DNA from: a virus
DNA: 64,000 bases
Reading direction: 5' to 3' (one strand)
Virus record (IMG/VR): IMGVR_UViG_3300027733_000030
Span: 132,541 to 196,540 of that record
Shown here: positions 39,864 through 55,057 of the stretch, piece by piece
How the letters are laid out: each line of letters begins with the position of its first letter
How positions within the stretch are numbered: the first letter of the stretch is position 1
The notes under the pieces: model-generated
Databases searched by the model: none
What the model saw: only the letters and a program-made list of their open reading frames with translations
Told to the model about the DNA's origin: nothing
Made by a program: the position numbers and the translations under genes

Positions 39864-39872
39864 ACTCTTCTA

Positions 39873-39947
39873 GCCCTCGTCGTCTACTGGTTAAGACAAC
39901 ACTCTTATAAAGTGTTTAACGGAGTTCAATTCTCCGCGGGGGTACCA
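39873..39947 (+). tRNA. tRNA-Ile(TAT)
   Basis: GCCCTCG/CGGGGGT; ACACT-CTTATAA-AGTGT; encoded CCA. Confidence 0.85.
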
Positions 39948-40539: not shown

Positions 40540-41016
40540 ATGACTACTACAAGATATCCTAAACCTAAAGGATCCCTTCGAATGACTGAAGAAAATGATA
40601 TTCCTATTAATATTCAATGGCGAGAAAAAGCAGCCTGCAAAGGTGAATCAATAGATTCATTTTTCCCAGTCGCTATCACTAAAGCGAACATAGAAGAAAC
40701 AACAAGAATTTATTCTCTGTGTGAACGATGCCCTGTTATCGTAGACTGCATGCATGAAGCTTTGCTCCGGGAATACGATGGCATCTGGGCTCGTAGTACA
40801 GCTAAACAGCGTCAAAGTTATGTGAGACATGTACTTCATAATAATGTTGAATCTTTAACTCGAGAACAAACTAAAATCTTTGTTGATGATTTATGTCGTA
40901 GAGCTATTACTCCCACTAAAATTTATGTCAAAAGAAATAACTCTAAAATTATCTATGAACCTACAGAAGAACCATCAAAGACACAGTCAGATTCTTCTAA
41001 CGATAAGGATATATAA
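40540..41016 (+). CDS. whiB: WhiB-family Fe-S transcription factor
   Basis: WREKAAC...FFP...LCERCPV..DC...GIWAR.T..QR. Confidence 0.85.
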   Translation: MTTTRYPKPKGSLRMTEENDIPINIQWREKAACKGESIDSFFPVAITKANIEETTRIYSLCERCPVIVDCMHEALLREYDGIWARSTAKQRQSYVRHVLHNNVESLTREQTKIFVDDLCRRAITPTKIYVKRNNSKIIYEPTEEPSKTQSDSSNDKDI

Positions 41017-41777: not shown

Positions 41778-42219
41778 ATTCTTTAAAAAGATTCCACAAT
41801 CATTTTATACAGTATTTAGTCTAGCTGCTGTTGCTGCAGTTAACTATTCTATTATACATAGTTCTATAGTATTTATATTTTTAATGGTTCTTTTAGCTCA
41901 CGAATTAGGTCATTATTTTGTAGCTAAAAAACACAACGCTAAACCTAAGCTTCCTATATTTATACCTTTACCATTTTTTGTTATAGGTTTAACTAGGATA
42001 TCTAAGCTAGCACCACGTGCCCAAAAGAATGTTGCCTTCTACGGTCCATTCGTTGGGTTCCTTACTACATTATTTTTAATCTTACTTAATGGTATCTTTA
42101 ACTTTATGCCCTACGCACCGTTATTGTTTTTGTTATTTACAGAAACAGTTCTAAATTATTTTGGATCTGATGGTGCCAAATACCGAAAAGCTAAGAGGAG
42201 TACTTACTCATGTATCTAA
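41767..42219 (+). CDS. M50 (site-2 protease-like) membrane metallopeptidase domain
   Basis: LLAHELGH in a hydrophobic segment; VAFYGP; ATG at 41767. Confidence 0.7.
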   Translation: MKNKFFKKIPQSFYTVFSLAAVAAVNYSIIHSSIVFIFLMVLLAHELGHYFVAKKHNAKPKLPIFIPLPFFVIGLTRISKLAPRAQKNVAFYGPFVGFLTTLFLILLNGIFNFMPYAPLLFLLFTETVLNYFGSDGAKYRKAKRSTYSCI

Positions 42220-42614: not shown

Positions 42615-43004
42615 ATGACTAATCATGAAAATTCATCTTCAAAAATGAATAATTTTAATTTCTCATTTGCTCTTGCAAATAAAGCTAAGGTTGATATTCA
42701 ATCTGAATATTCTACTCTTGAAGAAAGAATCTCTAATATTACTGATTCTGAAAAATTTTATGTTAATGGTTTTCCAGTCTTAAAAAATATACTCATGCTT
42801 CAACCTAAAAAATCTGATCTCAAGAAACTAGCTAAAGCTATGGATCGATTGGCAGATCTTATTGAAATATATGAAGAAGCTCAATCTAAACTTTCTGTTA
42901 TCGAAGCTGTTCAAAAAGATCCGAACTGGTTTGCTTGGACTTTTGGAGATTTCACACAAGAAATCGACCAAGACATTGAACAACTTTTTAATACTAAAGA
43001 TTAA
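42615..43004 (+). CDS. Hypothetical protein
   Basis: 129-aa ORF. Confidence 0.6.
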   Translation: MTNHENSSSKMNNFNFSFALANKAKVDIQSEYSTLEERISNITDSEKFYVNGFPVLKNILMLQPKKSDLKKLAKAMDRLADLIEIYEEAQSKLSVIEAVQKDPNWFAWTFGDFTQEIDQDIEQLFNTKD

Positions 43005-43025: not shown

Positions 43026-45005
43026 ATGAGTAATGTTAACTATTCTTTTACAGATCAAGATAGCAATGGAAATATAGTATTTAGATCAACTGTTAATTCA
43101 TTTGGCCTGGATCATGTTACTGATAAAGATCTTACTTCTTTTTATACGAAGTTTTCATCCAATGCTTATCTTGATACTGGCCTACTACCAGTAGATGGTT
43201 CTGGTCTTTTGGCCATTAGATCAGCTGGTAATCATACCCAAATTGCCTATCAGCATAAGCCTGGCATGTACTACATTAACTGGGGTAGATATGAAAGAGA
43301 TGCTGAAGCAAAAAAGTACTATGTTGCTCAGCCTTATAGAATAGTTATTGCTGATCTTCTCAATGATAACATTCTAGGAGCTAGAACATTCTATTCTCCT
43401 ATTCCCATTACCTATCCTCAAACTCCTTTATATCATATCAATGTTCCCAACATTAACTGCAAAGGTTATCGGGGAAATGCTGTAGGTTGGATTTGTTTAT
43501 ATCATACAGAAGACATTTCTCAGTATCCATTCAATGAGAAGCTCGCTAAAATTCTTGATCGTTGTTCAGGAACTGAAGCTTATAATGACAATAATATGAG
43601 TGAGACCGATGGTCCTCGTTTTTATCGTGATAATAATAAGCCGGAGCATCTTACTAATCCACAGGCTTGGGAAGATTATTCAGATAAAAATGGATACGAA
43701 TGGACTCTTGATCCTGAAGTATGGATTCCTATCTTAGTCCAAGACATTGATCATCAGGATCAGCATTACGCTGGTGGCCAACCACTTACTTTCGTTGACG
43801 CCTTGTTTGGCAATTACCAAGCATACTATACAGATTCACTTATTCCAAAGCCTATTAATGCTATCTCCAGAGATGATCTTACTTTAGATCCCACTTCTGT
43901 ATTTAGATGGTTTAAGCAGTCATATAATGCGTCATCTGAAACTAATGCAACTATTGATACTTTCAATTCTAGTACAACTGTTCGTGAAGCTTTGTCTCAA
44001 GCTGCTCCCGCATTTGTTGCTAATCAAGACGAAGACGAAGAAGAGGATGAAGACGATGATGAAGAAACTCATATGTGTCAACAATGTGAATCTTGGTATC
44101 CTCCAGATGACGTTGTTGAAGTTTATAATCATGAATTAATTTGCAATTCATGTATCTCAAATTCATATACATTTGTCAATCATATTGACAATTATGTAGA
44201 CGATGATCATGAAGAGTTATACTACGATGAAACTCTTGCTCGTCATTATTATCTGCCCGACTGGCCTTACCATATCAGTTGCCCTACCTGTGATCATCTA
44301 CATATCTACGATCCAGGTATGGCATTTAATAAAGAAAATCTAAACATCTGGCATTCTAATAGTTCTTTTGCTCCAGATCGTTGCACTGAATGTATTGATA
44401 AATACATTTATGTATCTGAAGGTATAGCTTATAATTCATGCAAGTGCTCAAACTGTGATACAAATGTTCCCAATTTGGCTACTTCAATTTTTTCTGTTTA
44501 TTATCGCACCGACGAAGAAGGATTGCAACGCCCTCTTTGCACTACATGCGCTTTAAGAATGAAGCTTATAAATAAACCTCTCAATATTGATTTAACTAAT
44601 AAAATTGAGTGGAACCATTCTGAACAGACTGTTGAAGAATCTATTCATCTATGTATTTGTGGTGTTGAAAATGACACATTTCTTAATTTAGATTCTCTCA
44701 AAATTTCTCATCCTTCATTTTTATTCACTGCAAAAAGTACAACTGCAGACATCATTAATGCTCATCCAACATTAGTTACAAATCCAACTGGAATTGATTG
44801 GGATGACAATAATGAAGTTTTTATCTATGACGTATCTGTTGATAAGTTATGCTCAACTTGTTGGTCACAATATTCTCAGGATGCTGGGTATTATTATAAC
44901 CAAATTAAACCTAATGTTGTAGATCTTTTTCAAAAACTACATGATAACAATCAAAGCTTCGAAACCATTTCTGGATTGCACATTCAGAAAGCTGAAATAT
45001 TTTAG
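43026..45005 (+). CDS. Prokaryotic E2-like (family D/PRTRC-B-like) domain fused to an acidic linker and a Cys-rich multi-Zn-finger region
   Basis: PYRIVI...LYHINVPNINC...GWICL (Cys 43494); DEDEEEDEDDDEE; multiple CxxC. Confidence 0.7.
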   Translation: MSNVNYSFTDQDSNGNIVFRSTVNSFGLDHVTDKDLTSFYTKFSSNAYLDTGLLPVDGSGLLAIRSAGNHTQIAYQHKPGMYYINWGRYERDAEAKKYYVAQPYRIVIADLLNDNILGARTFYSPIPITYPQTPLYHINVPNINCKGYRGNAVGWICLYHTEDISQYPFNEKLAKILDRCSGTEAYNDNNMSETDGPRFYRDNNKPEHLTNPQAWEDYSDKNGYEWTLDPEVWIPILVQDIDHQDQHYAGGQPLTFVDALFGNYQAYYTDSLIPKPINAISRDDLTLDPTSVFRWFKQSYNASSETNATIDTFNSSTTVREALSQAAPAFVANQDEDEEEDEDDDEETHMCQQCESWYPPDDVVEVYNHELICNSCISNSYTFVNHIDNYVDDDHEELYYDETLARHYYLPDWPYHISCPTCDHLHIYDPGMAFNKENLNIWHSNSSFAPDRCTECIDKYIYVSEGIAYNSCKCSNCDTNVPNLATSIFSVYYRTDEEGLQRPLCTTCALRMKLINKPLNIDLTNKIEWNHSEQTVEESIHLCICGVENDTFLNLDSLKISHPSFLFTAKSTTADIINAHPTLVTNPTGIDWDDNNEVFIYDVSVDKLCSTCWSQYSQDAGYYYNQIKPNVVDLFQKLHDNNQSFETISGLHIQKAEIF

Positions 45006-45013
45006 GAGAATAT

Positions 45014-46663
45014 ATGTCTGAAGAAATTGAACAAGAACTCACTCTTGACGATTTAGATTACTACTGGATGTCTAATGGTCTTCCAGTATTCATGGCTAAT
45101 CGTGAAGATATCTGTGAAGTTGTAGAATATTTTGGTTTTAATATTTATTATCTTCTTGGTAATATTGAAAAAACAACAACAACTACTCCCCCATCAAATA
45201 CAACTTACAAAGCTGCTAATACTCCTGCTCCCGCTGCAGTTAAAGTAACAACATCAAACATGCAATTGTTTAAGGTTGTCAATAACTTTGTTGGTCGTAC
45301 TGTTACTCCTTCTGCTGAATCATTTGATCCTCAGTTTATTGCGGTGCAAGAAGAAGCTACTTATAATATGCCACCCATTCCTCACGTTCTTGTTGATAAA
45401 CTCGATCAGTTCTTTAGACTTGTCGATGCACAACATGGATCTGAATCTATTGTCATGCTTACCTATGATCTTGAAAAAGAAGGATCTGAAGGTTGGGGCA
45501 TTCTTGTTCCAGATCAAACTAATACTTCAGTCCATTGCAACTATGATCCCAATAGTATTGCTGAAGTTAAGCCTGATAATGTTATGATTGTTGGCTCTGT
45601 TCACAGCCATCCTGGAATGAGCGCCTATGCTTCTGGAACAGACCATAAAGATCAAGCTGATTTCGATGGTATTCACATTACATTTGGCTGGCAGAAGTCT
45701 GTTCAAAATGGAGCGACTCAATACTATGCTGAAATGCAGATGTCAGGACAAGCATATAAACTTGATATCGAGGATGTCTTTGAAGATTATGTTGTCGAAA
45801 AAGCACCAGATCCAGAAGTTGTAGCTTGGACCGGTAAAGTAAAAAAAGCACTCCCCCCCAGTACGGTGGGGGGATCACTCACTCCAGTAAATGGAACCCA
45901 TCAGGCGGGTACGCAGGCTGGTACAGCTGATCACAGAAAGAAGCAAGCATTATCTTTTAGATGTATTCCAGAATTCAATCTTGAAGACAATGCCATTATT
46001 GTAGCAGAATTAGATGATGAACAAAACAAACTCTTTACATGCCCATCTTGCCAAACATCTCTTGACGAGTATGATATTTTTGACGGTAGCTGCTGTGTTT
46101 GTGACGTACCCATTGCTGAAAAGAACACAAACGTAGCAACTCTTATCGACAATCTTGCATACTATTGCACTAGAAATGGTATTGATAAGAAGGCTCCCGC
46201 TTACTTATGGTGTAGAGATGCTAATAATTTAGATTTCATTATTCGATTAACTCCCACAACACTGCTCAATTCTATCTTTACAGATCCTCATCTAGATGAT
46301 TCTTATATGATTTTAGAAAATACTTTAGAATCCGTAGTTGATGATGACATCTTCACCGTATGCTGCGGAAGAACAATGCAAGACGCTGAACAACTTTGCT
46401 ATTGCAAAGTGCAGATTCTTACATCTGATTTTGTAGATTTCGAAGAAGAAACAAAAACAATTCAAGTCTATGATCTGTCTACCGGATGTGCTAATTGTGA
46501 ATTCTTTTATGATACACACTGTCCGGAATATATAAAACTTATAGAAAAATTTGTAAGTAATAGGTCTACAGATATTTATTCATTTGAAGAAGCAATTTCT
46601 ATTCAAGAATGTAATAGCTATCTGCCCTATAGTGCAAATATATATAACCCCTTGGAGGCGTAA
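45014..46663 (+). CDS. JAB/MPN+ metallo-isopeptidase with C-terminal Cys-rich region
   Basis: E...GSVHSHPGMSAYASGTD (HSH at 45602-45610), GIHITFG. Confidence 0.88.
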   Translation: MSEEIEQELTLDDLDYYWMSNGLPVFMANREDICEVVEYFGFNIYYLLGNIEKTTTTTPPSNTTYKAANTPAPAAVKVTTSNMQLFKVVNNFVGRTVTPSAESFDPQFIAVQEEATYNMPPIPHVLVDKLDQFFRLVDAQHGSESIVMLTYDLEKEGSEGWGILVPDQTNTSVHCNYDPNSIAEVKPDNVMIVGSVHSHPGMSAYASGTDHKDQADFDGIHITFGWQKSVQNGATQYYAEMQMSGQAYKLDIEDVFEDYVVEKAPDPEVVAWTGKVKKALPPSTVGGSLTPVNGTHQAGTQAGTADHRKKQALSFRCIPEFNLEDNAIIVAELDDEQNKLFTCPSCQTSLDEYDIFDGSCCVCDVPIAEKNTNVATLIDNLAYYCTRNGIDKKAPAYLWCRDANNLDFIIRLTPTTLLNSIFTDPHLDDSYMILENTLESVVDDDIFTVCCGRTMQDAEQLCYCKVQILTSDFVDFEEETKTIQVYDLSTGCANCEFFYDTHCPEYIKLIEKFVSNRSTDIYSFEEAISIQECNSYLPYSANIYNPLEA

Positions 46664-47421
46664 TGAGCACTGAAAGACGTTTTATTTTAGTTGGAGCAGG
46701 GGGCATTGGCACTTGGCTTGCAGCAGGGCTTGTCAGACTTCTTGAATGGAAATTCCCAGGATCCGCTCTCATCATTGTTGATGGTGATACCTTTGAGGAA
46801 AAGAATAAAGAACGTCAAGACTTCATTAAGCTTGGAAATAAAGCTGTAGTTAAAGCTGCGGAACTTGTTCCTCAGTTCCCTAACACTACAATTATTCCAT
46901 TAGCTAAATGGGTTGTCGATGATAACTTTGCTGGCGTTACTGATGACGACAGTCCTAAGATAACTGCTTCGCAACTCATTCGTGAAAACGATGTTGTCTT
47001 TGCTGTTGTTGATAACTTTGCTGCTAGAAAAATTATCTTCGATGCCGCTTCTAAATTAAATAATGTTGATGTTTTTACTGGAGGTAATGATGATGACCTT
47101 TTTGGTTCTATTTATCATTATCAAAAACGAGATGGCGTAGAAATTACTGCTCATCCCGCTGAATATCATCCAGAATACAACAATCCGCCAGATAAGAATC
47201 CTGGTGAATTGTCTTGTCAAGATCGCGCCCAGATTGAAGGAGGCACTCAACTACTCGCCACTAATATGGCAGTAGCGTCCTTTATTCTTGGTCGTGTCCA
47301 AAAAACAATAGTGTCCAATCAAAGCCCTGAAGAAACAGAAATTTTCTTTGATCTTGGACTCGGTAAATCTGAACCATACAACAGAATGCATTCTTCTGTA
47401 GAAGAACCAATTACAGTATAA
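46663..47421 (+). CDS. ThiF/E1-like ubiquitin-activating enzyme
   Basis: VGAGGIG, IVDGD.FEEKN..RQ, KA, VDNFAAR, catalytic-type SC (47215), Q...TN. Confidence 0.92.
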   Translation: MSTERRFILVGAGGIGTWLAAGLVRLLEWKFPGSALIIVDGDTFEEKNKERQDFIKLGNKAVVKAAELVPQFPNTTIIPLAKWVVDDNFAGVTDDDSPKITASQLIRENDVVFAVVDNFAARKIIFDAASKLNNVDVFTGGNDDDLFGSIYHYQKRDGVEITAHPAEYHPEYNNPPDKNPGELSCQDRAQIEGGTQLLATNMAVASFILGRVQKTIVSNQSPEETEIFFDLGLGKSEPYNRMHSSVEEPITV

Positions 47422-47435
47422 TAGGAGAAATTAAA

Positions 47436-47690
47436 ATGGAAAATACAAGTTCATCGGCAGCTCAGCCGAATCGCGCTAATGGAATGGCTAATCTCCGCTA
47501 TGGAGTTTACAATCAGCCGAGCAACATTGCTGGCAAGTCCATCAATGAAGTTCGTCAACAGTTCGCTAAGATCTGGGGCATTCCCAATGATGCTATTGCC
47601 TACTGTGGCAAGGACAAACTTGATGAGAACGCTGTTATTCAGCCCGGCCAGAACATTGAGTTCCACCGCCGTGCAGGCGAAAAGGGCTGA
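47436..47690 (+). CDS. Ubiquitin-like (beta-grasp) protein, PRTRC protein C-like, ending in Gly
   Basis: 84 aa; ...IQPGQNIEFHRRAGEKG*; AGGAG RBS. Confidence 0.8.
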   Translation: MENTSSSAAQPNRANGMANLRYGVYNQPSNIAGKSINEVRQQFAKIWGIPNDAIAYCGKDKLDENAVIQPGQNIEFHRRAGEKG

Positions 47691-47703: not shown

Positions 47704-47763
47704 GGGGGAGGATCTGAATACATTTTTCATTAGATAAATGTATCGATCCTCCCCCTATTTTTT
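47704..47763 (+). terminator. Intrinsic terminator after the Ubl gene
   Basis: GGGGGAGGATC/GATCCTCCCCC-TATTTTTT. Confidence 0.75.
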
Positions 47764-47797
47764 GAAAAGGCAACACCTAGTACGTTTGGTGATATAT

Positions 47798-49411
47798 ATG
47801 TTATTTGATTCTATTAAACTCAACTATCCAAATATTTGGATTAAAGATTCTGACTCTTCCAGAATTGTAGATGTTATTACTTCTACAATTGATAGAGATT
47901 ATTATATTATTGATTTTCTATCTGGATTTTCTAAGTACTGCGAAGGCCAATGGAAGAGCGTATTAGTTCCTAATCCTTTGGCTGAAATGACTGGTGGACC
48001 TGAACTAGTGGTCACCTATGATCCATCGATTGCCATGTCCTATCTTTTAGAAAATGCTATCACATTTACTAAGCCAGCTACTTACTTCATTAATGTTATT
48101 GGTGATCTTAATGCGGCAATCATGCCCATGTCTCCATACATTGCCCACTTTAAATCATCATATCGTAAAGCTTTCTGGAATGATGATCTTTCATTAATGC
48201 CTCTTCAATTAATTTTCTTGAGTTCACAAAATGTTTCTGAAGAATATGCTCAGTACTTTACTGTTATAGAAGATCTTATTCCTGGTCCTTCTGAACTTCA
48301 CTCTATTGCTACGCATATCAATGCTTCTGCACATGACCGTCTCATTGAACAAGATAACATTAAAGAACTTGTTAATGCTGGAATCGGTCTTACTGAATCT
48401 CAATTCATTGACCTTTGTTTAACATCTGTTGTTAATACTGGACAACTTAATCCTAAGTTTGTTTATGATCAAAAGATGTCAACTATCAAAAAGAATGGCA
48501 TTCTTGAAATCATTAAGCCTACAATGAGCTTTGCAGATATTGGTGGTCTTGATAATATCAAAGACATTATTCGTAGAACAGCAGTTCTATGGAATGATCC
48601 CCAGCGCGCAAAGTCTTTTGGTATTACCCCTATTCGCAGAATGCTTATGGTTGGAATTCCCGGCACTGGTAAGTCAGCAATCTGTCAAGCCACTGCTAAT
48701 GAACTTGGACTAGACTTGGCTCGCACTGGTATTAGCCAAGTTATGAATTCTTTTATTGGTCAATCAGAAGCTAACATGCGTGCTGTCTTTAAGCAAATCA
48801 AACTCATGTCCCCACTATGTGTGTGGATTGACGAGTTTGGTCGCGATCTTTCTGGTGGATCAAGTTCTTCCCATGTAGACGGTGGAACCACTGATCGTGT
48901 TCATGGTGAATTCCTTACTGGTCTTCAAGAGCTTCCTGAAGAAACATTCCTGCTATGTGCTGCTAATCAACTTGAAGCTTTGCGCCCTGAGATGTTGCGC
49001 GCAGATCGTTTCGATAAGATTATGTTTGTTGGTCTTCCTTCTTTTGAAGAACGCAAACATATCTTTAATATTCATTTGAGTAAGATTGATACTGACCACG
49101 ATTATAATTATGATGCGCTAGCCGACGCTTCTGTATATATGACTGGTGCAGAAATTGTTTCTTTGATCCGTGAAACAAAATTTTATGTAACTTCTGAATC
49201 TTTCAGACCAATTGAAACTAAAGATGTTTTACATTTTATTCCTCGTACTAAGAATACTATTTGGCTCAAGCACAATGACATGGTTATGTCCATGTATCAG
49301 TATGCCTTTGAGCAGTGGGATTGGGCCTCGACATCTCAGATGGAAGATGCTAGAATGATACTAGGTAAAAAGACTCCTGTAAAGTCAGAATCCAAACTTA
49401 TTTGGAACTAA
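47798..49411 (+). CDS. AAA+ ATPase (Ycf46/Cdc48-like: degenerate N-module plus active C-module)
   Basis: IGGLDNIK, GIPGTGKS, CVWIDE, SRH AANQ...PEMLRADRFD; ATG at 47798 because 47738 lies inside the terminator. Confidence 0.85.
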   Translation: MLFDSIKLNYPNIWIKDSDSSRIVDVITSTIDRDYYIIDFLSGFSKYCEGQWKSVLVPNPLAEMTGGPELVVTYDPSIAMSYLLENAITFTKPATYFINVIGDLNAAIMPMSPYIAHFKSSYRKAFWNDDLSLMPLQLIFLSSQNVSEEYAQYFTVIEDLIPGPSELHSIATHINASAHDRLIEQDNIKELVNAGIGLTESQFIDLCLTSVVNTGQLNPKFVYDQKMSTIKKNGILEIIKPTMSFADIGGLDNIKDIIRRTAVLWNDPQRAKSFGITPIRRMLMVGIPGTGKSAICQATANELGLDLARTGISQVMNSFIGQSEANMRAVFKQIKLMSPLCVWIDEFGRDLSGGSSSSHVDGGTTDRVHGEFLTGLQELPEETFLLCAANQLEALRPEMLRADRFDKIMFVGLPSFEERKHIFNIHLSKIDTDHDYNYDALADASVYMTGAEIVSLIRETKFYVTSESFRPIETKDVLHFIPRTKNTIWLKHNDMVMSMYQYAFEQWDWASTSQMEDARMILGKKTPVKSESKLIWN

Positions 49412-49425
49412 TAGATAGGAATATT

Positions 49426-50052
49426 ATGAGCGATACATTCGATAATGCTGAAGAATTTCTTTCTTCTTTGGAAGGAATAAAGGATCCAGTTAAAACTGAT
49501 ACTAAAGACTACCAGCAAGATCTTTATAAAAAGTGGTTTAGATCAAAGACACAGAGTGGCTTCTTAGCTATTCGTCCTTGGAATGAAGCACTTAAAATGA
49601 AGATCGATATTGGTAAGACTTCTTCTGAAGGAAAACTTCAAAGCAGTACTGCAGTCTTTGTTGACACTATCGACTTTGCTGCGTACCTTCGTTCAATTGC
49701 AAATCAAACAGCTGTTATAAACTATCCTGCCAATGAAAGAATGGGCGTTCCCACTAATGAAGGTTTTGTTTCATATGGTGGAACGACCATTGATGGCAAG
49801 CCTATTTCTCGAATCTTTAAGGCTCATTACTGGCAAACATCGGATGCAGTGGATGCTACTTCATTTGTTTGGAAGTGTGGACACTTTGCTGCGCGTAAGT
49901 CTGACAGTGGTGCATTTATTCCTGATATGAAGACTCCTCTGTCTGTTGATCAGATTAAAGTTAGTCGTCAAGATATTTGCTCTATCTCATACTTAATGGA
50001 TCTTTCTATGGTATCATATGTTACCAACAATCAAGACTGGTATGAACAATGA
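49426..50052 (+). CDS. Hypothetical protein
   Basis: ATG at 49426 after AGGA. Confidence 0.7.
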   Translation: MSDTFDNAEEFLSSLEGIKDPVKTDTKDYQQDLYKKWFRSKTQSGFLAIRPWNEALKMKIDIGKTSSEGKLQSSTAVFVDTIDFAAYLRSIANQTAVINYPANERMGVPTNEGFVSYGGTTIDGKPISRIFKAHYWQTSDAVDATSFVWKCGHFAARKSDSGAFIPDMKTPLSVDQIKVSRQDICSISYLMDLSMVSYVTNNQDWYEQ

Positions 50053-50438
50053 CAGAAGAAAATATTCCATCACTTGACTCAGTTACTGCAGAGTTTATTA
50101 CTAATCTTTTTCAAGAAGTAATGACAGGAATTCATGCTCAAGTTGAGCAAAGACTTCAGGTAGTAGAAAAATCTATTGAATCTATTGAAAAACAAATAGC
50201 TTCTCTTATTCTCGGTTACGGAGAGCAGGCTGTATTTATGGAAGCCTTAGTTGCTCAAATAGCATATTCCACAGATGAAGCTCGTGCTGCTTTCCATAAC
50301 GATGTTTCCAAGTCTCGCAGAGAAATGCTTGAGGTTATGCAACATGCATCAAAAGGAATCCTGGCTGACCAAGATCAAAATCTTGCCACAGCCGTTGCAG
50401 ATATGGTTGACTCAGAGCTGTCTAATACAGACTCCTGA
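50049..50438 (+). CDS. Coiled-coil hypothetical protein
   Basis: ATGA overlap. Confidence 0.65.
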   Translation: MTEENIPSLDSVTAEFITNLFQEVMTGIHAQVEQRLQVVEKSIESIEKQIASLILGYGEQAVFMEALVAQIAYSTDEARAAFHNDVSKSRREMLEVMQHASKGILADQDQNLATAVADMVDSELSNTDS

Positions 50439-50629
50439 TTTATCTTGTTTATTACTAGTTGATAATTCTACTTTAGAATTACTTCATAATTTATCTTATC
50501 TATCTAGCATATATCCTATTGTTCAATCTATATATCCTGATGTTACATCTTTATTTATTTCTAGTACGTCTTTTCAAGAATTTATAAAGACAGGAAAAAT
50601 AGAAGTCTATTCAGTTGAGGTAAATAATA

Positions 50630-51193
50630 ATGATCATAAACAAGTTCCAATCTTTGGAACATCTGAATGAAGTTTTTAATAAACTTTTTGATTCCGCATA
50701 TATTGCAAAGATTACTACCGATACAGTTGATGTTGTTGCAGCGAGTTTAGATGAATCTCGCAAACAATCCGTAGTATCTCTTTTAAACTTAAATATTAGT
50801 CCAGATATATATCAAGAAATATATATTTATTTAGGTTCTAAAACAGATTTTAAAAAAGAATATTATTCTAATATTCCAACTTCACTTTATGACAAGTATT
50901 ATAATGCTCTTCGTGATAATGGAGCTATACTTGCTGCAACGGGCGCTTATGTTCTTGTCAAAAAAATAAATCTTTCACAGTCTATTTTAGATCTTATCAA
51001 TGTCACGATAGATACTAATCAGGCATCTAAAATTATTTCTTCCCTTATTACTCAAGTTAATGACTTGCAAAAAGATGTCAAATATTATGCGGAATATGTT
51101 GAGTCATTAGAAAAGCAGGCTCAAGAACTTCTTGATCAAACTTCTAAAGCTAGAGAAGATTTGTACAATAAAACGATAACTACTTGGTATTAA
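50630..51193 (+). CDS. Hypothetical protein with C-terminal coiled coil
   Basis: GAGG RBS. Confidence 0.65.
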   Translation: MIINKFQSLEHLNEVFNKLFDSAYIAKITTDTVDVVAASLDESRKQSVVSLLNLNISPDIYQEIYIYLGSKTDFKKEYYSNIPTSLYDKYYNALRDNGAILAATGAYVLVKKINLSQSILDLINVTIDTNQASKIISSLITQVNDLQKDVKYYAEYVESLEKQAQELLDQTSKAREDLYNKTITTWY

Positions 51194-51194
51194 T

Positions 51195-52379
51195 ATGTCT
51201 GATCTAAATAAACCCATTAGTCTTGAAGACCTTCTCAAGCAGCTTGTTGCTCCAGGTGAATTTTCTAATACACTAGCAAAAACCTATAAAAAATTAAAAA
51301 TTAAAACCCCATTAGATTTATTTGAATCTAATACTGTACTTAACTTAGCTAATACATCGGAGTCAGTGGTGCACGATCTTAATATTATACCTAATAATAA
51401 TCATTCTTCAGAGAGTGAATCTAATAATGTTCCTGTTCTTTTTGATTTAGATACTTCTCAATACTATTTCGATTTACCAAATCCAGGTACAGATTATACT
51501 ACTCGTTTTTGGCTTAATCCAATTCATGCAGCAAAGTATCCTGGACCAACTGGTTGCGAAGAAGGGGAATTTGTTTATGACTATTTTGCTTCTGGCGAAG
51601 TATACTTAAATATTCCTGAAAATATTTATATTACTTCAGTTGCTAAAACATTTTTTACTGTTTACAAGAATCATATAGTTTCTCCTACGGGACAACTTAA
51701 GCAACATCCTGATTGTGCCGGATTTGCTCCCAGTAACCATGTAGTTTCCTGCCTTTCCCCTTCAGTAGATCCATACAACTCTACTCCAGTCTATGCTTGG
51801 AAATTCAGCATTGATACCTTTTTCAATACTGTATCATCTTCTGAAGTTAAAGATAAGAAGAAAGTTATTTCGCCTGCTCCTTGTCAGTATTTGACATATC
51901 ATGCCAATGATACTAAAATTACTTCTACGGATTACGCATTTGCTAATGTTCCTCCAAACATTGCTTTATGTTCTTCTCCTGTTCTTTCTTCTAAGTCATC
52001 AATGACTTTATGTTCATCTTTTCATTTAGGCAGAATTGATAAGCACTGCCCTCAGTATGTTGCTCTTTCTACTATTATTAAGACAACTACAGTTACTCCT
52101 TTGAATAGTGAAAACATCATAAATATTCAAATGCGCTATAGTACAACTTTAAGTGGAGATCATTCTTTTGTCATACAGAACATGACAGATAATGCTACGT
52201 TAACTACTTTAAACTATGATAAAGACTCTAACTACGATGAAGTTCTTGTAGAAGCTAACAATATCTTTGAAGAGTTTATATCGTGCTACGATGCGCATAC
52301 GCTTGAAGATAAAAACATAGAACAGGAAAAAATTTCTGTTAACAAAGTTAGCTATATACAAACTCTTATTGGAGCTTAA
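51195..52379 (+). CDS. Cys/His-containing hypothetical protein
   Basis: 394 aa; scattered conserved-looking Cys. Confidence 0.65.
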   Translation: MSDLNKPISLEDLLKQLVAPGEFSNTLAKTYKKLKIKTPLDLFESNTVLNLANTSESVVHDLNIIPNNNHSSESESNNVPVLFDLDTSQYYFDLPNPGTDYTTRFWLNPIHAAKYPGPTGCEEGEFVYDYFASGEVYLNIPENIYITSVAKTFFTVYKNHIVSPTGQLKQHPDCAGFAPSNHVVSCLSPSVDPYNSTPVYAWKFSIDTFFNTVSSSEVKDKKKVISPAPCQYLTYHANDTKITSTDYAFANVPPNIALCSSPVLSSKSSMTLCSSFHLGRIDKHCPQYVALSTIIKTTTVTPLNSENIINIQMRYSTTLSGDHSFVIQNMTDNATLTTLNYDKDSNYDEVLVEANNIFEEFISCYDAHTLEDKNIEQEKISVNKVSYIQTLIGA

Positions 52380-52382
52380 ATA

Positions 52383-53864
52383 ATGTCTTTATCTGGAAAA
52401 TTTACTAACATTGATGCTAGGGAAGCAACTAGTTCTTATCTTATTAATGTTAATTTAGATTCTGCTTCAACCGTAGTTCATTCTGCATTAACAACTTCTT
52501 ATTACAACTATCCTAACTATCCTCTTTCTTTAGCTCAATCTTCTACTGATGATCAAGTTGTTAATGATTTTCTTGGTGGATATTGGTATGATACTAAACA
52601 AGTCCCTACATTATTGACAGTAGATGTTTCTTCTATCTTTTCTGGAAAAACTGAAGATGTTGTTTATGCCCATAAGGAAATGATTTATCCAAAAATAGAT
52701 CCATCTTTACTTCCAATAGCTACTCGTTACATTACTCCTGAAGGCTATTATTTTATAGAGCGTCCTCCTTTTCAAGTTGAAGTAGACTTATATATCACTA
52801 AGAATAGGTATTCTGATAATCGCAAAAAAATGAATCCATATAAAGTTTGGATTCCTTGGACTCTTACAATCTTGAATCCTCATGATTTGAGTGATGTAAA
52901 AATTATGTTTTCTCATAAATCTCTTTCTTCCATGGAAGATGTTTATTCTCCTTCATTTCTTCCTAACTCTTACATGGATGGTAGAATTTGTTTTGCCGGT
53001 AGTCTCAGTCAACTTTCTGTTGAAAACATAGATAAAAAAGATATTCGTTATATCTATTCTATGGTTTTTAATGAATTCATGAATGGTGGATGGAATTTAG
53101 ATTTGACTCCAAATCTTTATAGATTCTTTCAACAGTATCAACCTTCAGAAGATTATCCTATTTTATCTAAGTTTCTCAATCCTGATAAAGTTCTTTTGAA
53201 GAAAAAATATCCAAAGATGACTACTCGGCAGTTAGAGAATTTTAATTACGACGCATCTACTCGTTCATATGGTTCTGTATTTAATTATTTCTTTACTCAA
53301 TTATCTACATTTAGTCTTGATGAAACTTTGGAATTTTATAAAGAAATTTCAGAATTTCCCACCAATGTTCGTTATCATAAATGTACTTATACTTTTGAAG
53401 AACTTGTTAATATAATAAAAAAAAATCTTAAGATAACTGCTGTCTCTTCTTACGAAAACTTTTCTTCAACTGTTCAAGATATTCTTACAAAAAATTCTAA
53501 ATTAGATCAATCTTTCTTTTTATATGAATCTTTTCCTGTCATTGTTTATAATATTGATTCTACAAATTTAAGTAGTTCTTTTAGGTTAAGACATTATTTT
53601 GATCTTTCATCTCTTCATGAAGTATTAGAACACTATATAAATAATCCATCAAAGGATAAAATTTATGTACTCGATTATGCTACCAGTAAATTTTCAGTTG
53701 TAGATATTCAAAAAAATGTTACCACTAATTATTATGATTTTATTAAAAGTAAAATTGGTGCTCCTTATGAATCTTTTGAATCTTACATTAGTTTCAAGAA
53801 TTATCTTTTCGCAAAGACCGCCTATACTTCTTCTAACTCTACTGTTCAGGAGTCCCTTGTCTAA
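52383..53864 (+). CDS. Second prokaryotic E2-like protein
   Basis: FIERPP, WIPWTL, FLPNSYMDGRICF (Cys 52989). Confidence 0.7.
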   Translation: MSLSGKFTNIDAREATSSYLINVNLDSASTVVHSALTTSYYNYPNYPLSLAQSSTDDQVVNDFLGGYWYDTKQVPTLLTVDVSSIFSGKTEDVVYAHKEMIYPKIDPSLLPIATRYITPEGYYFIERPPFQVEVDLYITKNRYSDNRKKMNPYKVWIPWTLTILNPHDLSDVKIMFSHKSLSSMEDVYSPSFLPNSYMDGRICFAGSLSQLSVENIDKKDIRYIYSMVFNEFMNGGWNLDLTPNLYRFFQQYQPSEDYPILSKFLNPDKVLLKKKYPKMTTRQLENFNYDASTRSYGSVFNYFFTQLSTFSLDETLEFYKEISEFPTNVRYHKCTYTFEELVNIIKKNLKITAVSSYENFSSTVQDILTKNSKLDQSFFLYESFPVIVYNIDSTNLSSSFRLRHYFDLSSLHEVLEHYINNPSKDKIYVLDYATSKFSVVDIQKNVTTNYYDFIKSKIGAPYESFESYISFKNYLFAKTAYTSSNSTVQESLV

Positions 53865-55057
53865 TGTCTATTTCTATACTAACTTCAAATACTAATAATA
53901 TTTCTGTTAAAGTTAATTATAATGAAGATTCTTCTTATATAAGTTCTTTTGTTTACAATAATTATTCCAATGATTTACAACAAATTACCGGAGAACTTGA
54001 TCGAGTTGTTCCAGTAACCGATTTTGTTTCTTCATTTACAAAGAATAATTATATAGTAAAAGATACTGGCATTATGCCCCCAGGACTCCTATATGCTACT
54101 AAAAAATATTTAGTCTTTGAAAAACCGCCTTGCTATGAAAATGTTTCTATTATTTACAAGCAGGTTGATGGCATAGACTATGATTCTGATGAAGAAAATA
54201 TTTATCGCATTCCAGTTCCTTGGCAGTTATACATTGTTAAATATCATGAAGTAAGGAATGAAAATCAGATTGAGTATTATACTACTGATGTTCGCATGTA
54301 CTTTATGAAGACTTCTTTAATGCACCCTGATCAAGAAATGTTCATGGTTCCAATTCCCAATTTCTATTCTAACGGCGATTTGTGTCGTCCATTCTTTTCA
54401 GATATGGATGATATAGAAAAGTATTCTAAAGATTTTGCTGGAGTTATTGAGTCCGCTTATGATTGGGTATGGAACTCTGGAACTAATTTAGATTTAACTG
54501 AAACTGTTGCGAAGTACTATTCTTTTTATCAAGATAAACCAGAGAATACTATTTTACAAAAATTTACCGTACCTTTTACTCGTGAAATAAATAAAGAAAA
54601 TTATTACATAGGTGATAATTATGTTGCAGCTTTATTTAAAGCTTGGGAATCAATTGATCTTCATGAAATTAGTAATATAAACTGGGTAAAAAATTCTCAA
54701 AATCCTCGTTTTCATTCAGACTTCAGTAATGCTCGAACTAACTTGATTGGTGAATATTTACAAACCATAGATCAAAGCAGTCAAATGCACAGAAATTTAG
54801 ATTGCTGCGATTCATGCAGCGAGTATGATGATGAGCAAGATGAATATACGAATAGTGAAGATTGTGAGTGTGAATGTCACATTCCCGAAACTTCCATAGA
54901 TTATGATGATTTCTATGCTTTTGCTGGAGTTTGGCCACCTAAGGGTTTTACTTACCTGGAAGCCTTAGCATCTTTTATGGAAGAAGATTCTCGAATTAGT
55001 CATTATTCATTGCTTCGCCATATCCGAAATATTGAAGATCAAGTGCTAATGTCTTGA
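53864..55057 (+). CDS. Third prokaryotic E2-like protein with C-terminal Cys cluster
   Basis: VFEKPP, IPVPWQL, PIPNFYSNGDLCR (Cys 54383); CCDSC...CECECH. Confidence 0.7.
   Translation: MSISILTSNTNNISVKVNYNEDSSYISSFVYNNYSNDLQQITGELDRVVPVTDFVSSFTKNNYIVKDTGIMPPGLLYATKKYLVFEKPPCYENVSIIYKQVDGIDYDSDEENIYRIPVPWQLYIVKYHEVRNENQIEYYTTDVRMYFMKTSLMHPDQEMFMVPIPNFYSNGDLCRPFFSDMDDIEKYSKDFAGVIESAYDWVWNSGTNLDLTETVAKYYSFYQDKPENTILQKFTVPFTREINKENYYIGDNYVAALFKAWESIDLHEISNINWVKNSQNPRFHSDFSNARTNLIGEYLQTIDQSSQMHRNLDCCDSCSEYDDEQDEYTNSEDCECECHIPETSIDYDDFYAFAGVWPPKGFTYLEALASFMEEDSRISHYSLLRHIRNIEDQVLMS

What the first reader, a model, noticed from the sequence alone, without database searches (positions are those of the whole stretch)
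43026..47690. Complete phage-encoded ubiquitin-like conjugation operon (E2 - JAB - E1 - Ubl)
Seen: four contiguous genes encode an E2-like domain with the PN..G.IC catalytic Cys, a JAB protease with an intact E/HSH/S/D zinc motif, a ThiF E1 with GxGxxG and SC, and an 84-aa Ubl ending RAGEKG followed by a terminator. The Ubl gene has visibly more C/G-ending codons than its neighbours, consistent with high expression. Established: this composition matches the PRTRC-type and other prokaryotic Ub systems of mobile elements, and bacterial Bil/Bub and CBASS Cap2-Cap3 systems use E1/E2/JAB chemistry in anti-phage defence. Inference: the phage may tag host or viral proteins itself, for example to counter host Ubl defence, mark host proteins for unfolding, or assist virion assembly. 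The Ubl already ends in Gly, so JAB would act as a deconjugase rather than only a maturase.
Basis: partly seen in the sequence, partly recalled or inferred. Interest (0 to 1): 0.88.

Follow-up and report, generated by a model that had tools for sequence, protein, structure and literature searches.

The report
Jumbo-phage ubiquitin-like protein-tagging gene cassette
A large uncultured phage, probably of actinobacteria, carries its own conserved gene kit for attaching a small ubiquitin-like tag to proteins, chemistry that in the papers I could search is described only for bacterial and mobile-element operons, some of them anti-phage defences.

Summary
Four tightly packed + strand genes (43026-47690) encode an E2-like protein with a Cys-rich tail, a JAMM/JAB peptidase with an intact E..HxH..S..D motif, a minimal ThiF-type E1 with an invariant loop Cys, and an 84-aa protein. 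The 84-aa protein models as a beta-grasp and ends in an invariant ...RRAGEKG. A strong hairpin terminator follows.

The E2 call is the weakest link. It rests on remote homology (profile-profile to two downstream paralogs, which in turn match true Prok-E2_D/PRTRC_B) and on a confident model with only low-Z likeness to UBC folds.

The cassette is larger than reported. A Cdc48/VAT-like AAA ATPase, conserved unknown genes and two further E2 paralogs follow, to 55057. All 30 related viral contigs (20 to 268 kb) that I fetched keep the same gene order; the five records checked are bona fide tailed-phage genomes of 190 to 268 kb.

The Ubl gene has capsid-like codon bias, which suggests high expression.

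No thioester, conjugate or target is shown; the function is inferred. I found no paper describing it. This scan has already noted the same cassette on other genomes. A distant, unannotated version sits in cultured Salmonella phage Arash.

Verdict: a new phage-borne variant of prokaryotic Ubl conjugation systems, of high interest.

The parts
42615..43004 (+). Conserved upstream gene (129 aa, unknown function, coiled-coil-like). It lies 21 nt before E2A and may be the first gene of the operon.
   Evidence: Syntenic in 28 of 30 related loci at 38-57% identity. No Pfam family.
43026..44015 (+). E2A, N-terminal E2-like domain (aa 1-330). The PN motif is at 43446-43451 and the candidate catalytic Cys157 at 43494-43496.
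   Evidence: The family has 218 representatives at 50% identity. N142 and C157 are invariant. hhalign to the E2B/E2C core gives prob 86%, E 4.9e-6, and aligns the PN motif and the Cys. AF2 gives pLDDT 92, pTM 0.86. The best solved-structure match is UBE2S at Z 4.5 over 119 aa; about 15 of the top 50 are UBC/UEV folds over model residues 40-235. The Atlas shape search gives TM 0.65 to a viral cluster in which 13% of members carry Prok-E2_D.
44016..45005 (+). E2A Cys-rich tail (aa 331-659; 17 Cys, 7 CxxC). A fast-evolving candidate zinc-finger or target-recognition module.
   Evidence: Tail identity averages 21% against 61% for the N-domain. Tail length is 126-345 aa, with 8-21 Cys, across orthologs.
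45014..46663 (+). JAB/JAMM metallopeptidase (549 aa). The JAB core is about aa 85-290 (45266-45883). Key codons: E144 at 45443, H197-S-H199 at 45602-45610, S207 and D210 up to 45643. A Cys-rich tail follows from aa 291.
   Evidence: Pfam Prok-JAB E 4.7e-5; TIGR03735 PRTRC_A E 6e-4, the best NCBIfam hit. The motif is invariant, and 12 Cys in the tail are invariant.
46663..47421 (+). Minimal E1 (ThiF-type adenylating enzyme, 252 aa). GAGGIG lies at 46693-46710 and the candidate thioester Cys185 at 47215-47217. It has no UFD, no rhodanese domain and no CxxC zinc site.
   Evidence: PF00899 44.9 bits, over the cut-off. The best NCBIfam hit is PRTRC_ThiF at 29.8 bits, far below the cut-off. Orthologs are 69-90% identical, with invariant ATP-site residues and S184-C185. 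hhalign to true PRTRC ThiF gives prob 90% over the Rossmann half only.
47436..47690 (+). Ubl: an 84-aa beta-grasp protein with a disordered N-terminus (aa 1-16) and a flexible tail ...RRAGEKG. Gly84 is at 47685-47687. The RBS is strong (AGGAGA).
   Evidence: 80 homologs, about 80-86 aa when full-length, most 63-94% identical. GEKG is invariant and Lys34, Lys59 and Lys83 are conserved. AF2 core pLDDT is about 90 with a bb-a-bbb topology. Foldseek finds Ub/SUMO/NEDD8. No sequence family in Pfam or PDB. GC3 is 0.51.
47704..47763 (+). Intrinsic terminator (stem of 11 perfect pairs, extended by inner pairs, plus U6). A motif conserved in relatives, TTTTTTGAAAAGNC...TAGT, follows and could be a promoter.
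   Evidence: z = -5.4, 0 of 200 shuffles fold as well; same position, different stems in relatives.
47798..49411 (+). AAA+ ATPase with one classic Cdc48/VAT-D2-like module after an N-terminal region of about 230 aa. The likely start is 47798; the longest ORF (from 47738) begins inside the terminator hairpin.
   Evidence: PF00004 E 7e-23. TIGR01243 CDC48 and PAN are the best NCBIfam hits. The best PDB matches are VAT/Cdc48/p97 at E 1e-55. Ortholog lengths are 528-551 aa. Syntenic in 30 of 30 loci.
49402..52379 (+). Four conserved genes of unknown function (216, 129, 187 and 394 aa). The 216-aa protein is very well conserved (61-79%).
   Evidence: No family found. The Atlas shows only viral clusters without a family.
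52383..53864 (+). E2B: an E2-like paralog (493 aa). The core is about aa 98-258, with motifs ERPP, PW, PN-x-Y-x-DG-x-IC (Cys203 at 52989-52991) and N-x-D-L, followed by a variable tail.
   Evidence: BLASTP against E2C gives 8e-11. Invariant residues are listed. The E2B/C core against true Prok-E2_D (PRTRC_B) gives hhalign prob 95.8%, E 7.8e-9. Direct PF14460 hits are weak.
53864..55057 (+). E2C: an E2-like paralog (397 aa). The core is about aa 58-228, with Cys174 at 54383-54385, followed by a variable tail.
   Evidence: As for E2B. BLASTP against E2A gives E 0.001 over the beta-meander. A six-frame PF14460 search hits the E2C ortholog of L028 at 3.2e-4.

Best explanation
This is a phage-owned ubiquitin-like protein conjugation system.

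Inferred cascade, by analogy with ThiF/MoeB, Uba1 and the bacterial Bil pathway:
1. The minimal E1 binds the abundant 84-aa Ubl and adenylates its C-terminal Gly84 with ATP.
2. The E1 takes the Ubl onto its loop Cys185 as a thioester.
3. The Ubl passes to the invariant Cys of one of three divergent E2-like proteins: E2A Cys157, E2B Cys203 or E2C Cys174.
4. The E2 transfers it to lysines of target proteins.

No E3 is recognisable. The fast-evolving tails of the E2s (Cys-rich zinc-finger-like in E2A) probably choose the targets.

The JAMM peptidase, which carries its own Cys-rich tail, removes or edits conjugates. The Ubl is made already ending in Gly, so maturation is not needed.

The Cdc48/VAT-like AAA ATPase encoded just after the terminator plausibly unfolds tagged proteins.

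Shown here: gene content, motifs, predicted folds, conservation, synteny and codon bias. Inferred: every chemical step, the targets, and whether those targets are host or phage proteins.
For: - E1: a ThiF family match over the cut-off, with invariant ATP-site residues and an invariant S-C in the crossover region.
- JAB: a complete, invariant JAMM motif.
- Ubl: a beta-grasp model with ubiquitin, SUMO and NEDD8 as best structural matches. It has a flexible tail ending in an invariant Gly and ubiquitin-like sequence conservation, 63-94% where its neighbours show 40-60%.
- E2s: three paralogs share the beta-meander, the PN motif and an invariant Cys. The E2B/C core is homologous to genuine Prok-E2_D/PRTRC_B proteins, which lie next to PRTRC ThiF in Bacteroidota. 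The E2A model is confident, and its only long structural matches are UBC/UEV folds.
- Operon structure: tight coupling, its own terminator, and identical gene order in all 30 viral contigs fetched.
- Codon bias: the Ubl's GC3 matches that of the major capsid gene, as expected for a stoichiometric reagent.
- No sulfurtransferase, rhodanese or cofactor-biosynthesis gene appears among the ORFs scanned from 38.7 to 57 kb.
- A distant cassette of the same kind (E2 with the same PN.Y.DG..C and N.DL motifs, Prok-JAB, ThiF) is present in cultured Salmonella phage Arash. Arash gp246 and gp248 were annotated 'structural protein', a label its authors assigned from mass spectrometry of particle preparations.
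Against: - No biochemical evidence of any kind.
- E2A has no direct significant match to any curated E2 family. None of 61 members hits Pfam. hhalign against true Prok-E2_D is not significant. Foldseek against PDB finds nothing. The VIA Z of 4.5 lies in the range the tool calls common.
- The His that defines Prok-E2_D, C-terminal to the Cys, is replaced by an invariant N-x-D in the phage E2s.
- The Ubl ends in Lys-Gly, not Gly-Gly.
- The E1 lacks a ubiquitin-fold domain, so how it recruits an E2 is unknown.
- The AAA gene lies behind a terminator. Its homologs in cultured phages occur without any Ubl cassette, so its link to tagging rests on synteny alone.
Confidence: 0.7

Rival explanations
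1. Sulfur-carrier pathway. The E1 adenylates the small beta-grasp protein, which becomes a C-terminal thiocarboxylate (as in ThiS, MoaD, TtuB or Urm1) and donates sulfur. One use would be thiolation of the phage's own tRNAs. JAB and the E2-like proteins would be accessory.
For: The E1's next-best NCBIfam hits are MoeB, ThiF and SAMP-activating E1. The window carries six tRNA genes. Thermus TtuB/TtuC and archaeal SAMPs combine sulfur transfer with conjugation (established knowledge).
Against: No rhodanese, cysteine desulfurase, PP-loop thiolase, ThiG or MoaE-type gene appears among the ORFs scanned. The E1 has no rhodanese domain. Three E2-like paralogs with an invariant Cys have no role in sulfur transfer. 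The tail ends in KG, not GG.
Confidence: 0.06
2. The enzymes are active, but the main purpose is counter-defence, not host take-over. The phage would swamp or reverse a host Ubl-based defence of the Bil, CBASS-Cap2 or Bub type. Its JAB would strip host tags from virion proteins, or its own Ubl would occupy the target lysines.
For: Bacterial Bil systems tag the phage central tail fibre, and JAB enzymes reverse such tags (10.1101/2023.09.04.556158; PMC10557695). The tails of E2A and JAB evolve fast, at 21-27% identity against about 61% for the catalytic parts, as expected in an arms race.
Against: Deconjugation alone would need only a JAB. A full E1, three E2s and a highly expressed Ubl are kept in all 30 contigs fetched. 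Nothing is known of Ubl defences in the likely actinobacterial host.
Confidence: 0.12
3. The E2-like proteins are non-catalytic (UEV-like or scaffold) and the cassette works as an E2-independent system. As with archaeal SAMP/UbaA, the E1 would conjugate the Ubl directly. Alternatively the Ubl would serve only as an assembly chaperone cleaved by JAB, as proposed for lambda tail assembly proteins I and K.
For: E2A fails every direct family test. E2-free Ubl conjugation exists in archaea (PMC2948915; PMC4895103). A phage Ubl plus JAB pair without E1 or E2 is known from lambdoid tail-assembly clusters (PMC1779556).
Against: The Cys after the PN motif is invariant in all three paralog families over wide divergence. 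UEV-type pseudo-E2s typically lack this Cys (established knowledge). The lambda-type Ubl is fused to a C-terminal domain and has no E1.
Confidence: 0.08
4. A PRTRC-like cassette whose still unknown role concerns the maintenance or partition of the element's DNA, not proteome remodelling.
For: The best curated hits of JAB and E1 are PRTRC_A and PRTRC_ThiF. The E2B/C core is homologous to PRTRC_B. The cassette lies in the replication and repair part of the genome, near WhiB, a helicase, SSB, UDG and RecA.
Against: All PRTRC models score far below their cut-offs or not at all. No ParB-like gene appears among the ORFs scanned. The architecture differs: three E2s, zinc-finger tails and an AAA ATPase. 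The function of PRTRC is itself unknown.
Confidence: 0.04

Closest known systems
PRTRC cassette (ParB-Related, ThiF-Related Cassette; TIGR03735 PRTRC_A/JAB, TIGR03737 PRTRC_B = Pfam Prok-E2_D, TIGR03736 PRTRC_ThiF) of bacterial mobile elements
   Same: It has separate small E1, E2 and JAB genes. The phage JAB and E1 have PRTRC_A and PRTRC_ThiF as their best curated hits. The E2B/C core is homologous to PRTRC_B with the same N-x-Y-x-x-G-x-[VLI]-C spacing. The E1 is of similar size (about 250-270 aa) and has no UFD.
   Different: All scores are far below the curated cut-offs. The conserved His after the Cys is replaced by N-x-D. The phage has three E2 paralogs of 400-660 aa with long tails, a 549-aa JAB with a zinc-finger tail, a Ubl of a new sequence family, and an AAA ATPase. 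No ParB gene was found. The cassette sits in a lytic-looking jumbo phage, not a plasmid or ICE.
[quoted passage not shown]
   Same: The same four separate components. The E2 lacks the classical HPN His.
   Different: That type is defined by an absolutely conserved His C-terminal to the Cys, which is not present here. It was described only in bacteria. The phage case in that paper is the E1/E2-less lambda TAPI/TAPK pair.
Bil (BilABCD) anti-phage systems (PMC10557695; 10.1101/2023.09.04.556158)
   Same: It comprises E1, E2, a JAB deubiquitinase and a Ubl with a C-terminal Gly. Ubl-to-lysine conjugation has been demonstrated, so this is the best model for how the cascade should work.
   Different: Bil is encoded by the host and aimed at the phage. 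I found no detectable sequence match with the libraries at hand. Bil has a single E2, no zinc-finger tails and no AAA ATPase.
Ubiquitin/SAMP/Pup tagging coupled to AAA unfoldases (Cdc48/p97, PAN, Mpa/ARC) and proteasomes
   Same: A tag gene lies next to a Cdc48/VAT-like AAA ATPase. In some relatives an HslV/proteasome-beta-like peptidase lies 3.3 kb downstream of E2C.
   Different: No peptidase of that kind occurs in this window or in its two nearest relatives among the five genomes checked. The AAA has a single ATPase module and an unrelated N-terminal region. Coupling is inferred from synteny only.
CBASS Cap2/Cap3 (E1-E2 fusion plus JAB)
   Same: E1/E2/JAB chemistry. The only PADLOC hits of the E1 are to Cap2-type E1-E2 models, at E 4e-5.
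   Different: Cap2 conjugates the C-terminus of a CD-NTase, not a dedicated Ubl. Its E1 and E2 are fused. No cyclase or effector occurs here.

Membership tests
E1 / ThiF-MoeB superfamily (PF00899) | Family HMM match over the curated cut-off | tested here: met
   44.9 bits against a cut-off of 28.1, E 1e-11.
E1 / ThiF-MoeB superfamily (PF00899) | GxGxxG nucleotide loop, acidic and Arg/Gln/Lys ATP-site residues, and the Mg-binding Asp | tested here: met
   G11-A-G-G-I-G16, D40, D42, R51-Q52, K60, D117 and R122 are invariant in 13 orthologs.
Canonical (thioester-forming) E1 | Catalytic Cys in the crossover loop that forms a Ubl thioester | not testable with these tools
   A candidate exists: S184-C185 is invariant. 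Whether it forms a thioester needs biochemistry. Bub E1s work through oxyesters instead (PMC11601596).
JAB/JAMM metallopeptidase (PF14464 Prok-JAB) | E ... HxH-x7-S-x2-D zinc and catalytic motif | tested here: met
   E144, H197, H199, S207 and D210 are invariant.
JAB/JAMM metallopeptidase (PF14464 Prok-JAB) | Family HMM match over the curated cut-off | tested here: inconclusive
   23.7 bits against a cut-off of 25, E 4.7e-5. The distant Arash homolog passes at 31.8 bits.
Ubiquitin-like beta-grasp modifier | Beta-grasp fold | tested here: met
   AF2 core pLDDT is about 90 with a bb-a-bbb topology. Foldseek best hits are Ub variants, SUMO1, NEDD8 and the parkin Ubl, TM 0.6-0.7, prob 1.00. This is a prediction, not a solved structure.
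Ubiquitin-like beta-grasp modifier | Exposed flexible C-terminal tail ending in Gly (classically Gly-Gly) | tested here: met
   G84 is terminal and invariant, and the tail has low pLDDT. The penultimate residue is Lys, so the diglycine form is not met.
E2 / UBC superfamily | UBC fold: N-terminal helix, antiparallel beta-meander, then helices | tested here: inconclusive
   The E2A model (pLDDT 92) has a helix, a beta-meander, a loop and then helices. The best solved match is UBE2S at Z 4.5, rmsd 4.8 over 119 aa, with many UBC/UEV chains at Z 3.4-3.7. Foldseek PDB gives no significant hit.
E2 / UBC superfamily | (H)PN motif followed by the catalytic Cys | tested here: met
   E2A has H137-x-N-x-P141-N142 ... 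G-W-I-C157. E2B/C have P-N-x-Y-x-x-G-x-[LI]-C. The Asn and Cys are invariant and aligned with each other.
Pfam Prok-E2_D (PF14460) / PRTRC_B (TIGR03737) | Family HMM match over the curated cut-off | tested here: not met
   E2A family: 0 of 61 members. E2B/C: 3 of 30 members, best E 0.0067, all below 25 bits. TIGR03737 gives no match. Homology shows only by profile-profile comparison, prob 95.8%.
Pfam Prok-E2_D (PF14460) / PRTRC_B (TIGR03737) | Absolutely conserved His C-terminal to the catalytic Cys (PMC1779556, row 6d) | tested here: not met
   True members have an invariant F-S-H199. The phage E2B/C have an invariant N-x-D there and no invariant His. E2A has E184, N187, N190 and D195.
PRTRC system | PRTRC_ThiF and PRTRC_A equivalog matches and a linked ParB-related gene | tested here: not met
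   29.8 bits against 144.75, and 19.4 bits against 101.8. No ParB family appears among the ORFs scanned from 38.7 to 57 kb.
Bil (BilABCD) system | Sequence membership of BilA-D families; host-encoded defence | tested here: inconclusive
   PADLOC 2.0 gives no Bil-type hit, only weak Cap2 E1-E2 hits for the E1. The library may not hold Bil models. The genomic setting (a phage) differs.

The most novel reading that the evidence does not exclude
The cassette is the core of a virus-owned 'tag, unfold, degrade' pathway.

Three E2s with rapidly evolving tails would pick host proteins, probably actinobacterial. They would mark these proteins with an abundant phage ubiquitin-like protein. The phage's Cdc48-like AAA ATPase would then unfold them.

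In the relatives that encode an HslV/proteasome-beta-like peptidase 3.3 kb downstream, that peptidase would degrade them. In the others, a host protease would.

This would be a bacterial-virus counterpart of the ubiquitin-proteasome system, used for host take-over.
Probability: 0.25. Interest if true: 0.95.

Novelty: new variant of a known kind. Interest (0 to 1): 0.8.

Why it matters
In the papers I could search, prokaryotic E1/E2/JAB/Ubl systems are studied as bacterial or mobile-element operons, and lately as anti-phage defences (Bil, CBASS Cap2/3, Bub).

This cassette puts the same chemistry on the virus side:
- It is kept in every one of 30 related viral contigs, in a clade of lake-water jumbo phages of about 190-270 kb.
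- Its tag is as conserved as ubiquitin.
- It has an expanded E2 set with no recognisable E3.
- It has built-in zinc-finger tails.
- It has a neighbouring Cdc48-like unfoldase.

If active, it would be a new mode of phage take-over or counter-defence. It would also offer a compact E3-free model of target selection, and a data point for how E2 diversification and coupling of Ubl tagging to an unfoldase arise.

A distant, unannotated cassette in cultured Salmonella phage Arash and in Vibrio phages makes the idea testable in the laboratory.

Tried and rejected
- Complex prediction (E1 + Ubl) was not available; nothing was folded.
- Megablast of the cassette and tblastn of the E2A N-domain and the E2C core against 50,697 phage records gave no match. 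The E1 gave one 27.6% hit, in an unannotated faecal phage contig.
- A Pfam scan of 61 E2A family members gave nothing. NCBIfam on 30 E2B/C members gave nothing. A six-frame TIGR03737 search on five phage genomes gave nothing.
- A profile of E2A against PDB sequences gave only a chance hit. Foldseek of the E2A model against PDB had no hit at E <= 0.001.
- hhalign of E2A against true Prok-E2_D was not significant (E 0.48), although in the same register.
- A word-index search with the E2B/C core profile for stand-alone bacterial relatives found only fragments of the same phage family.
- The Ubl against Pfam (24 members) and against PDB sequences gave only chance-level hits.
- A genome-contig scan with the E1 profile found only two short MAG contigs, labelled Cyclobacteriaceae and Ectothiorhodospiraceae. 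These are most likely binned phage DNA, so the labels say little about the host.
- The gene upstream of PRTRC_B in Bacteroidota is not a JAB, so I made no JAB-to-PRTRC_A profile comparison.
- I looked for a phage protease partner. No ClpP appears in five relatives. The HslV-like gene of some relatives is absent from this window.
- The neighbourhood of the best cultured-phage AAA homolog (Agrobacterium phage JP1) has no Ubl cassette.
- The 60-aa gene before the E2 in phage Arash ends ...GRSFV, so it is not an obvious mature Ubl.

Full report
**What is there.**

Four + strand ORFs lie between 43026 and 47690. They are separated by 8 nt, a 1-nt overlap and 14 nt, and each has a Shine-Dalgarno-like sequence upstream.

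| Name used here | Coordinates | Size |
|---|---|---|
| E2A | 43026-45005 | 659 aa |
| JAB | 45014-46663 | 549 aa |
| E1 | 46663-47421 | 252 aa |
| Ubl | 47436-47690 | 84 aa |

**The E1.** It matches Pfam ThiF above the curated cut-off (44.9 bits). Its best NCBIfam hit is PRTRC_ThiF, far below that model's cut-off, followed by MoeB, ThiF and SAMP-E1 models. Thirteen orthologs are 69-90% identical. The nucleotide loop GAGGxG is invariant, as are D40/D42, R51-Q52, K60, D117, R122 and a Ser184-Cys185 pair in the region where E1 crossover-loop cysteines lie. The protein has no ubiquitin-fold domain, no rhodanese domain and no zinc site. A profile search of PDB sequences finds only weak matches, to ThiF-type proteins 9egb and 9egc.

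**The JAB protein.** It has a complete JAMM motif: E144, H197-S-H199, S207 and D210. All are invariant in 15 orthologs. It scores just under the Prok-JAB cut-off, at E 4.7e-5. The JAB core is preceded by a conserved N-terminal domain. A 259-aa tail follows, in which 12 cysteines are invariant while the rest of the sequence drifts: 27% identity against 62% for the catalytic part.

**The 84-aa protein.** It has 80 homologs in the metagenomic protein collection. The full-length ones are about 80-86 aa long, most are 63-94% identical to the query, and they end in GEKG. One of the 24 I aligned carries two extra residues. This conservation is much higher than that of its neighbours.

AlphaFold2 gives a bb-a-bbb beta-grasp with core pLDDT of about 90. 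The first 14-16 residues are disordered and the C-terminal tail is flexible. Foldseek against PDB returns ubiquitin variants, SUMO1, NEDD8, the parkin Ubl and a Bacteroides fragilis ubiquitin-like protein, with TM 0.6-0.7 over about 70 residues. At the sequence level it belongs to no known family.

**The terminator.** GGGGGAGGATC (47704-47714) pairs with GATCCTCCCCC (47745-47755) and is followed by U6. The fold has z = -5.4, and none of 200 shuffles folds as well. Relatives have a hairpin with a different stem sequence at the same place, followed by a conserved TTTTTTGAAAAGNC..TAGT stretch. The pattern scanner missed it because of the long loop. The longest AAA ORF would start inside this hairpin. 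Ortholog lengths (528-551 aa) argue for a start at 47798.

**Codon bias.** The Ubl gene has GC3 0.51, against 0.16-0.29 for the thirteen neighbouring genes. In four related genomes the Ubl (0.47-0.62) resembles the major capsid gene (0.43-0.48) and not its neighbours (0.21-0.33). In 25 of 30 loci the Ubl exceeds its neighbours by more than 0.1. This supports high expression, as expected of a reagent consumed stoichiometrically, but it remains an inference.

**Is the first gene an E2?** This is the weakest point, and I spent most effort on it.

- *Conservation of E2A.* Residues 1-330 form a very well conserved domain: 218 representatives at 50% clustering, and 61 aligned sequences down to 33% identity. 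Invariant residues include N142 (of L-P-N), G154-W155, C157, Y159 and a downstream E184/N187/N190-M191/D195-G196 cluster. H137 and C145 are nearly invariant.
- *Direct family tests on E2A.* None of the 61 members hits any Pfam E2 family.
They share invariant ERPP, PW, P-N-x-Y-x-x-G-x-[LI]-C and N-x-D-L motifs.
- *E2B/C to E2A.* The E2B/C core profile matches E2A at hhalign prob 86%, E 4.9e-6. The PN motifs and the cysteines align across an E2A-specific insertion.
- *E2B/C to genuine Prok-E2_D.* I fetched nine true Prok-E2_D proteins from Bacteroidota genomes. They are PRTRC_B proteins lying directly next to PRTRC ThiF. The E2B/C core matches their profile at prob 95.8%, E 7.8e-9 over 124 columns, with the same N-x-Y-x-x-G-x-[VLI]-C spacing.
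- *Direct PF14460 hits on E2B/C.* These exist but are weak.
- *E2A to Prok-E2_D.* On its own this comparison is not significant.
- *Structure.* The AF2 model of E2A 1-330 is confident (pLDDT 92, pTM 0.86). Its order of elements is a helix, a long beta-meander, a loop carrying PN and Cys157, then helices. Foldseek finds nothing significant in PDB. The exhaustive VIA search puts UBE2S first (Z 4.5, 119 residues). About 15 of the top 50 are UBC/UEV chains covering model residues 40-235, and the other rows are 40-55-residue hairpin matches. The tool warns that Z below 8 can be a common arrangement.
- *Predicted-structure libraries.* The ESM Atlas shape search matches viral clusters at TM 0.56-0.69, one of which has Prok-E2_D on 13% of its members (feature search). 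BFVD holds an uncharacterised ortholog from an uncultured Caudovirales phage.

Taken together, the three proteins form a divergent, enlarged branch of the Prok-E2_D-like E2s. They are not members of that Pfam family. The scores are below the cut-off, and the family's hallmark His after the Cys is replaced by an invariant N-x-D.

**Context.** With the E1 as probe, 30 IMG/VR contigs (20 to 268 kb) were recovered. All show the same gene order: 129-aa gene, E2A, JAB, E1, Ubl, AAA, 216-aa gene, 129-aa gene, (187- and 394-aa genes), E2B, E2C.

Five of these records are 92-100% complete by CheckV and one has terminal repeats. All five encode an HK97-type capsid protein, and four give a large-terminase match. 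They are tailed jumbo phages.

Among 185,579 species genomes, only two short MAG contigs carry the E1.

The window also encodes a WhiB-type regulator (PF02467, E 1.6e-11) and a DUF732 protein. Both families are typical of actinobacteria and their phages, so I consider an actinobacterial host likely (the host range of WhiB is established knowledge). The MAG labels (Flavobacterium, Cyclobacteriaceae, Ectothiorhodospiraceae) disagree with each other and are probably binning artefacts.

**The AAA ATPase (47798-49411).** It has one classic-clade module. The best solved relatives are VAT, Cdc48 and p97 D2, at E 1e-55. Its homologs in cultured phages occur without a Ubl cassette. A functional link to tagging therefore rests only on the invariable adjacency in this clade.

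**A peptidase in some relatives.** Three of the five complete relatives encode a 203-aa protein beginning MTTIVAL...DSRIS, with weak but specific similarity to HslV, BPH and proteasome beta subunits. In two of them it lies 3.3 kb downstream of E2C. It is absent from this window and from the two nearest of the five relatives checked.

**Mechanism.** The best-supported reading is a working E1 to E2 to lysine cascade, with JAB as deconjugase, because the Ubl needs no maturation. No E3-like gene is recognisable. The E2A tail (17 Cys, 7 CxxC; 21% identity between orthologs against 61% for the catalytic domain; length 126-345 aa) and the variable tails of E2B and E2C are the obvious candidates for target recognition. 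All chemical steps are inferred.

A sulfur-carrier role is unlikely, for two reasons. No sulfur-transfer partner is present among the ORFs scanned, and three Cys-bearing E2 paralogs are kept. Counter-defence, non-catalytic E2 and PRTRC-like DNA-maintenance readings cannot be excluded.

**What is known.** Bacterial E1/E2/JAB/Ubl operons were predicted in 2006. The only phage case in that paper is the E1/E2-less lambda TAPI/TAPK pair (PMC1779556). Bil, CBASS Cap2/3 and Bub have since been shown to conjugate, all on the host side (PMC10557695; 10.1101/2023.09.04.556158; PMC11601596). PRTRC has no known function. A survey of 224 cultured jumbo phages from the group that described the bacterial systems does not mention a Ubl conjugation system (PMC7824862). 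My other searches found no paper on a phage-borne full cascade.

The same cassette has been noted several times by this scan on other genomes, with similar verdicts. One of those notes said that cultured phages carry related cassettes, and I checked this. The JAB core finds 27%-identical genes in Salmonella phage Arash and in three Vibrio phages. In Arash the neighbours are as follows.

| Arash gene | Size | Match |
|---|---|---|
| gp248 | 251 aa | E2-like, with the same PN.Y.DG..C and N.DL motifs (hhalign prob 84%) |
| gp247 | 412 aa | Prok-JAB, over the cut-off |
| gp246 | 346 aa | ThiF, over the cut-off |

gp246 and gp248 are annotated 'structural protein'. The Arash authors gave that label to hypothetical proteins found by mass spectrometry of particle preparations. 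Those preparations also contained many enzymes (116 proteins in all), so the label suggests that the proteins are made, not that they build the virion. The Arash paper does not mention ubiquitin or ThiF (PMC10585845).

**Verdict.** The cassette is a new, phage-borne and architecturally expanded variant of prokaryotic Ubl conjugation systems. Its E2 family and its Ubl family are undescribed. Function and targets are open.

Noticed in passing
L052:577-1188 (record of L014, 102976-103584); the record of L028, 160334-160945 (-); the record of L015, 251442-252044 and 32096-32701: Some relatives encode a protein of about 203 aa that starts MTTIVAL..DSRIS, with Thr2 placed like an Ntn nucleophile. 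It shows weak similarity to HslV, BPH and proteasome beta. In two genomes it lies 3.3 kb downstream of E2C. It is absent from this window and from the two nearest of the five relatives checked.
   Followed up: partly
L056 (Salmonella phage Arash OQ632216.1, 176281-179301); also Vibrio phages D69, D181 and D148: Cultured large phages carry a distant, unannotated E2-like / Prok-JAB / ThiF gene trio. In Arash the E2-like and E1 genes are labelled 'structural protein', a label assigned from particle mass spectrometry. No obvious Gly-ended Ubl was identified next to them.
   Followed up: partly
window 40540-41016 and 39124-39600: A WhiB-family regulator (PF02467, over the cut-off) and a DUF732 protein. 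Both point to an actinobacterial host, unlike the Bacteroidota and Gammaproteobacteria labels of MAG contigs that carry the cassette.
   Followed up: partly
window 41725-42219: A small membrane protein with an HExxH motif and a weak Peptidase_M50 (site-2 protease) match, 800 nt upstream of the cassette.
   Followed up: no
window 47756-47797: After the Ubl terminator comes a stretch conserved in relatives (TTTTTTGAAAAGNC..TAGT).
   Followed up: partly
window 49402-50052: The 216-aa protein after the AAA ATPase is one of the best conserved proteins of the block (61-79% identity) and has no recognisable family. It is a candidate partner, adaptor or substrate.
   Followed up: partly
window 7272-8717 (-), 9292-10404 (+), 33054-34730 (+), 55639-56843 (+): The window also encodes a ClpB/ClpA-D2-like AAA ATPase, a bacterial-type RecA, a superfamily-2 helicase, an SSB and a uracil-DNA-glycosylase-family protein. 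A GIY-YIG endonuclease lies at 39953-40246.
   Followed up: no
window 25946-39947: Six tRNA genes are scattered among the early genes, including tRNA-Ile with anticodon TAT and tRNA-Arg with TCT.
   Followed up: no
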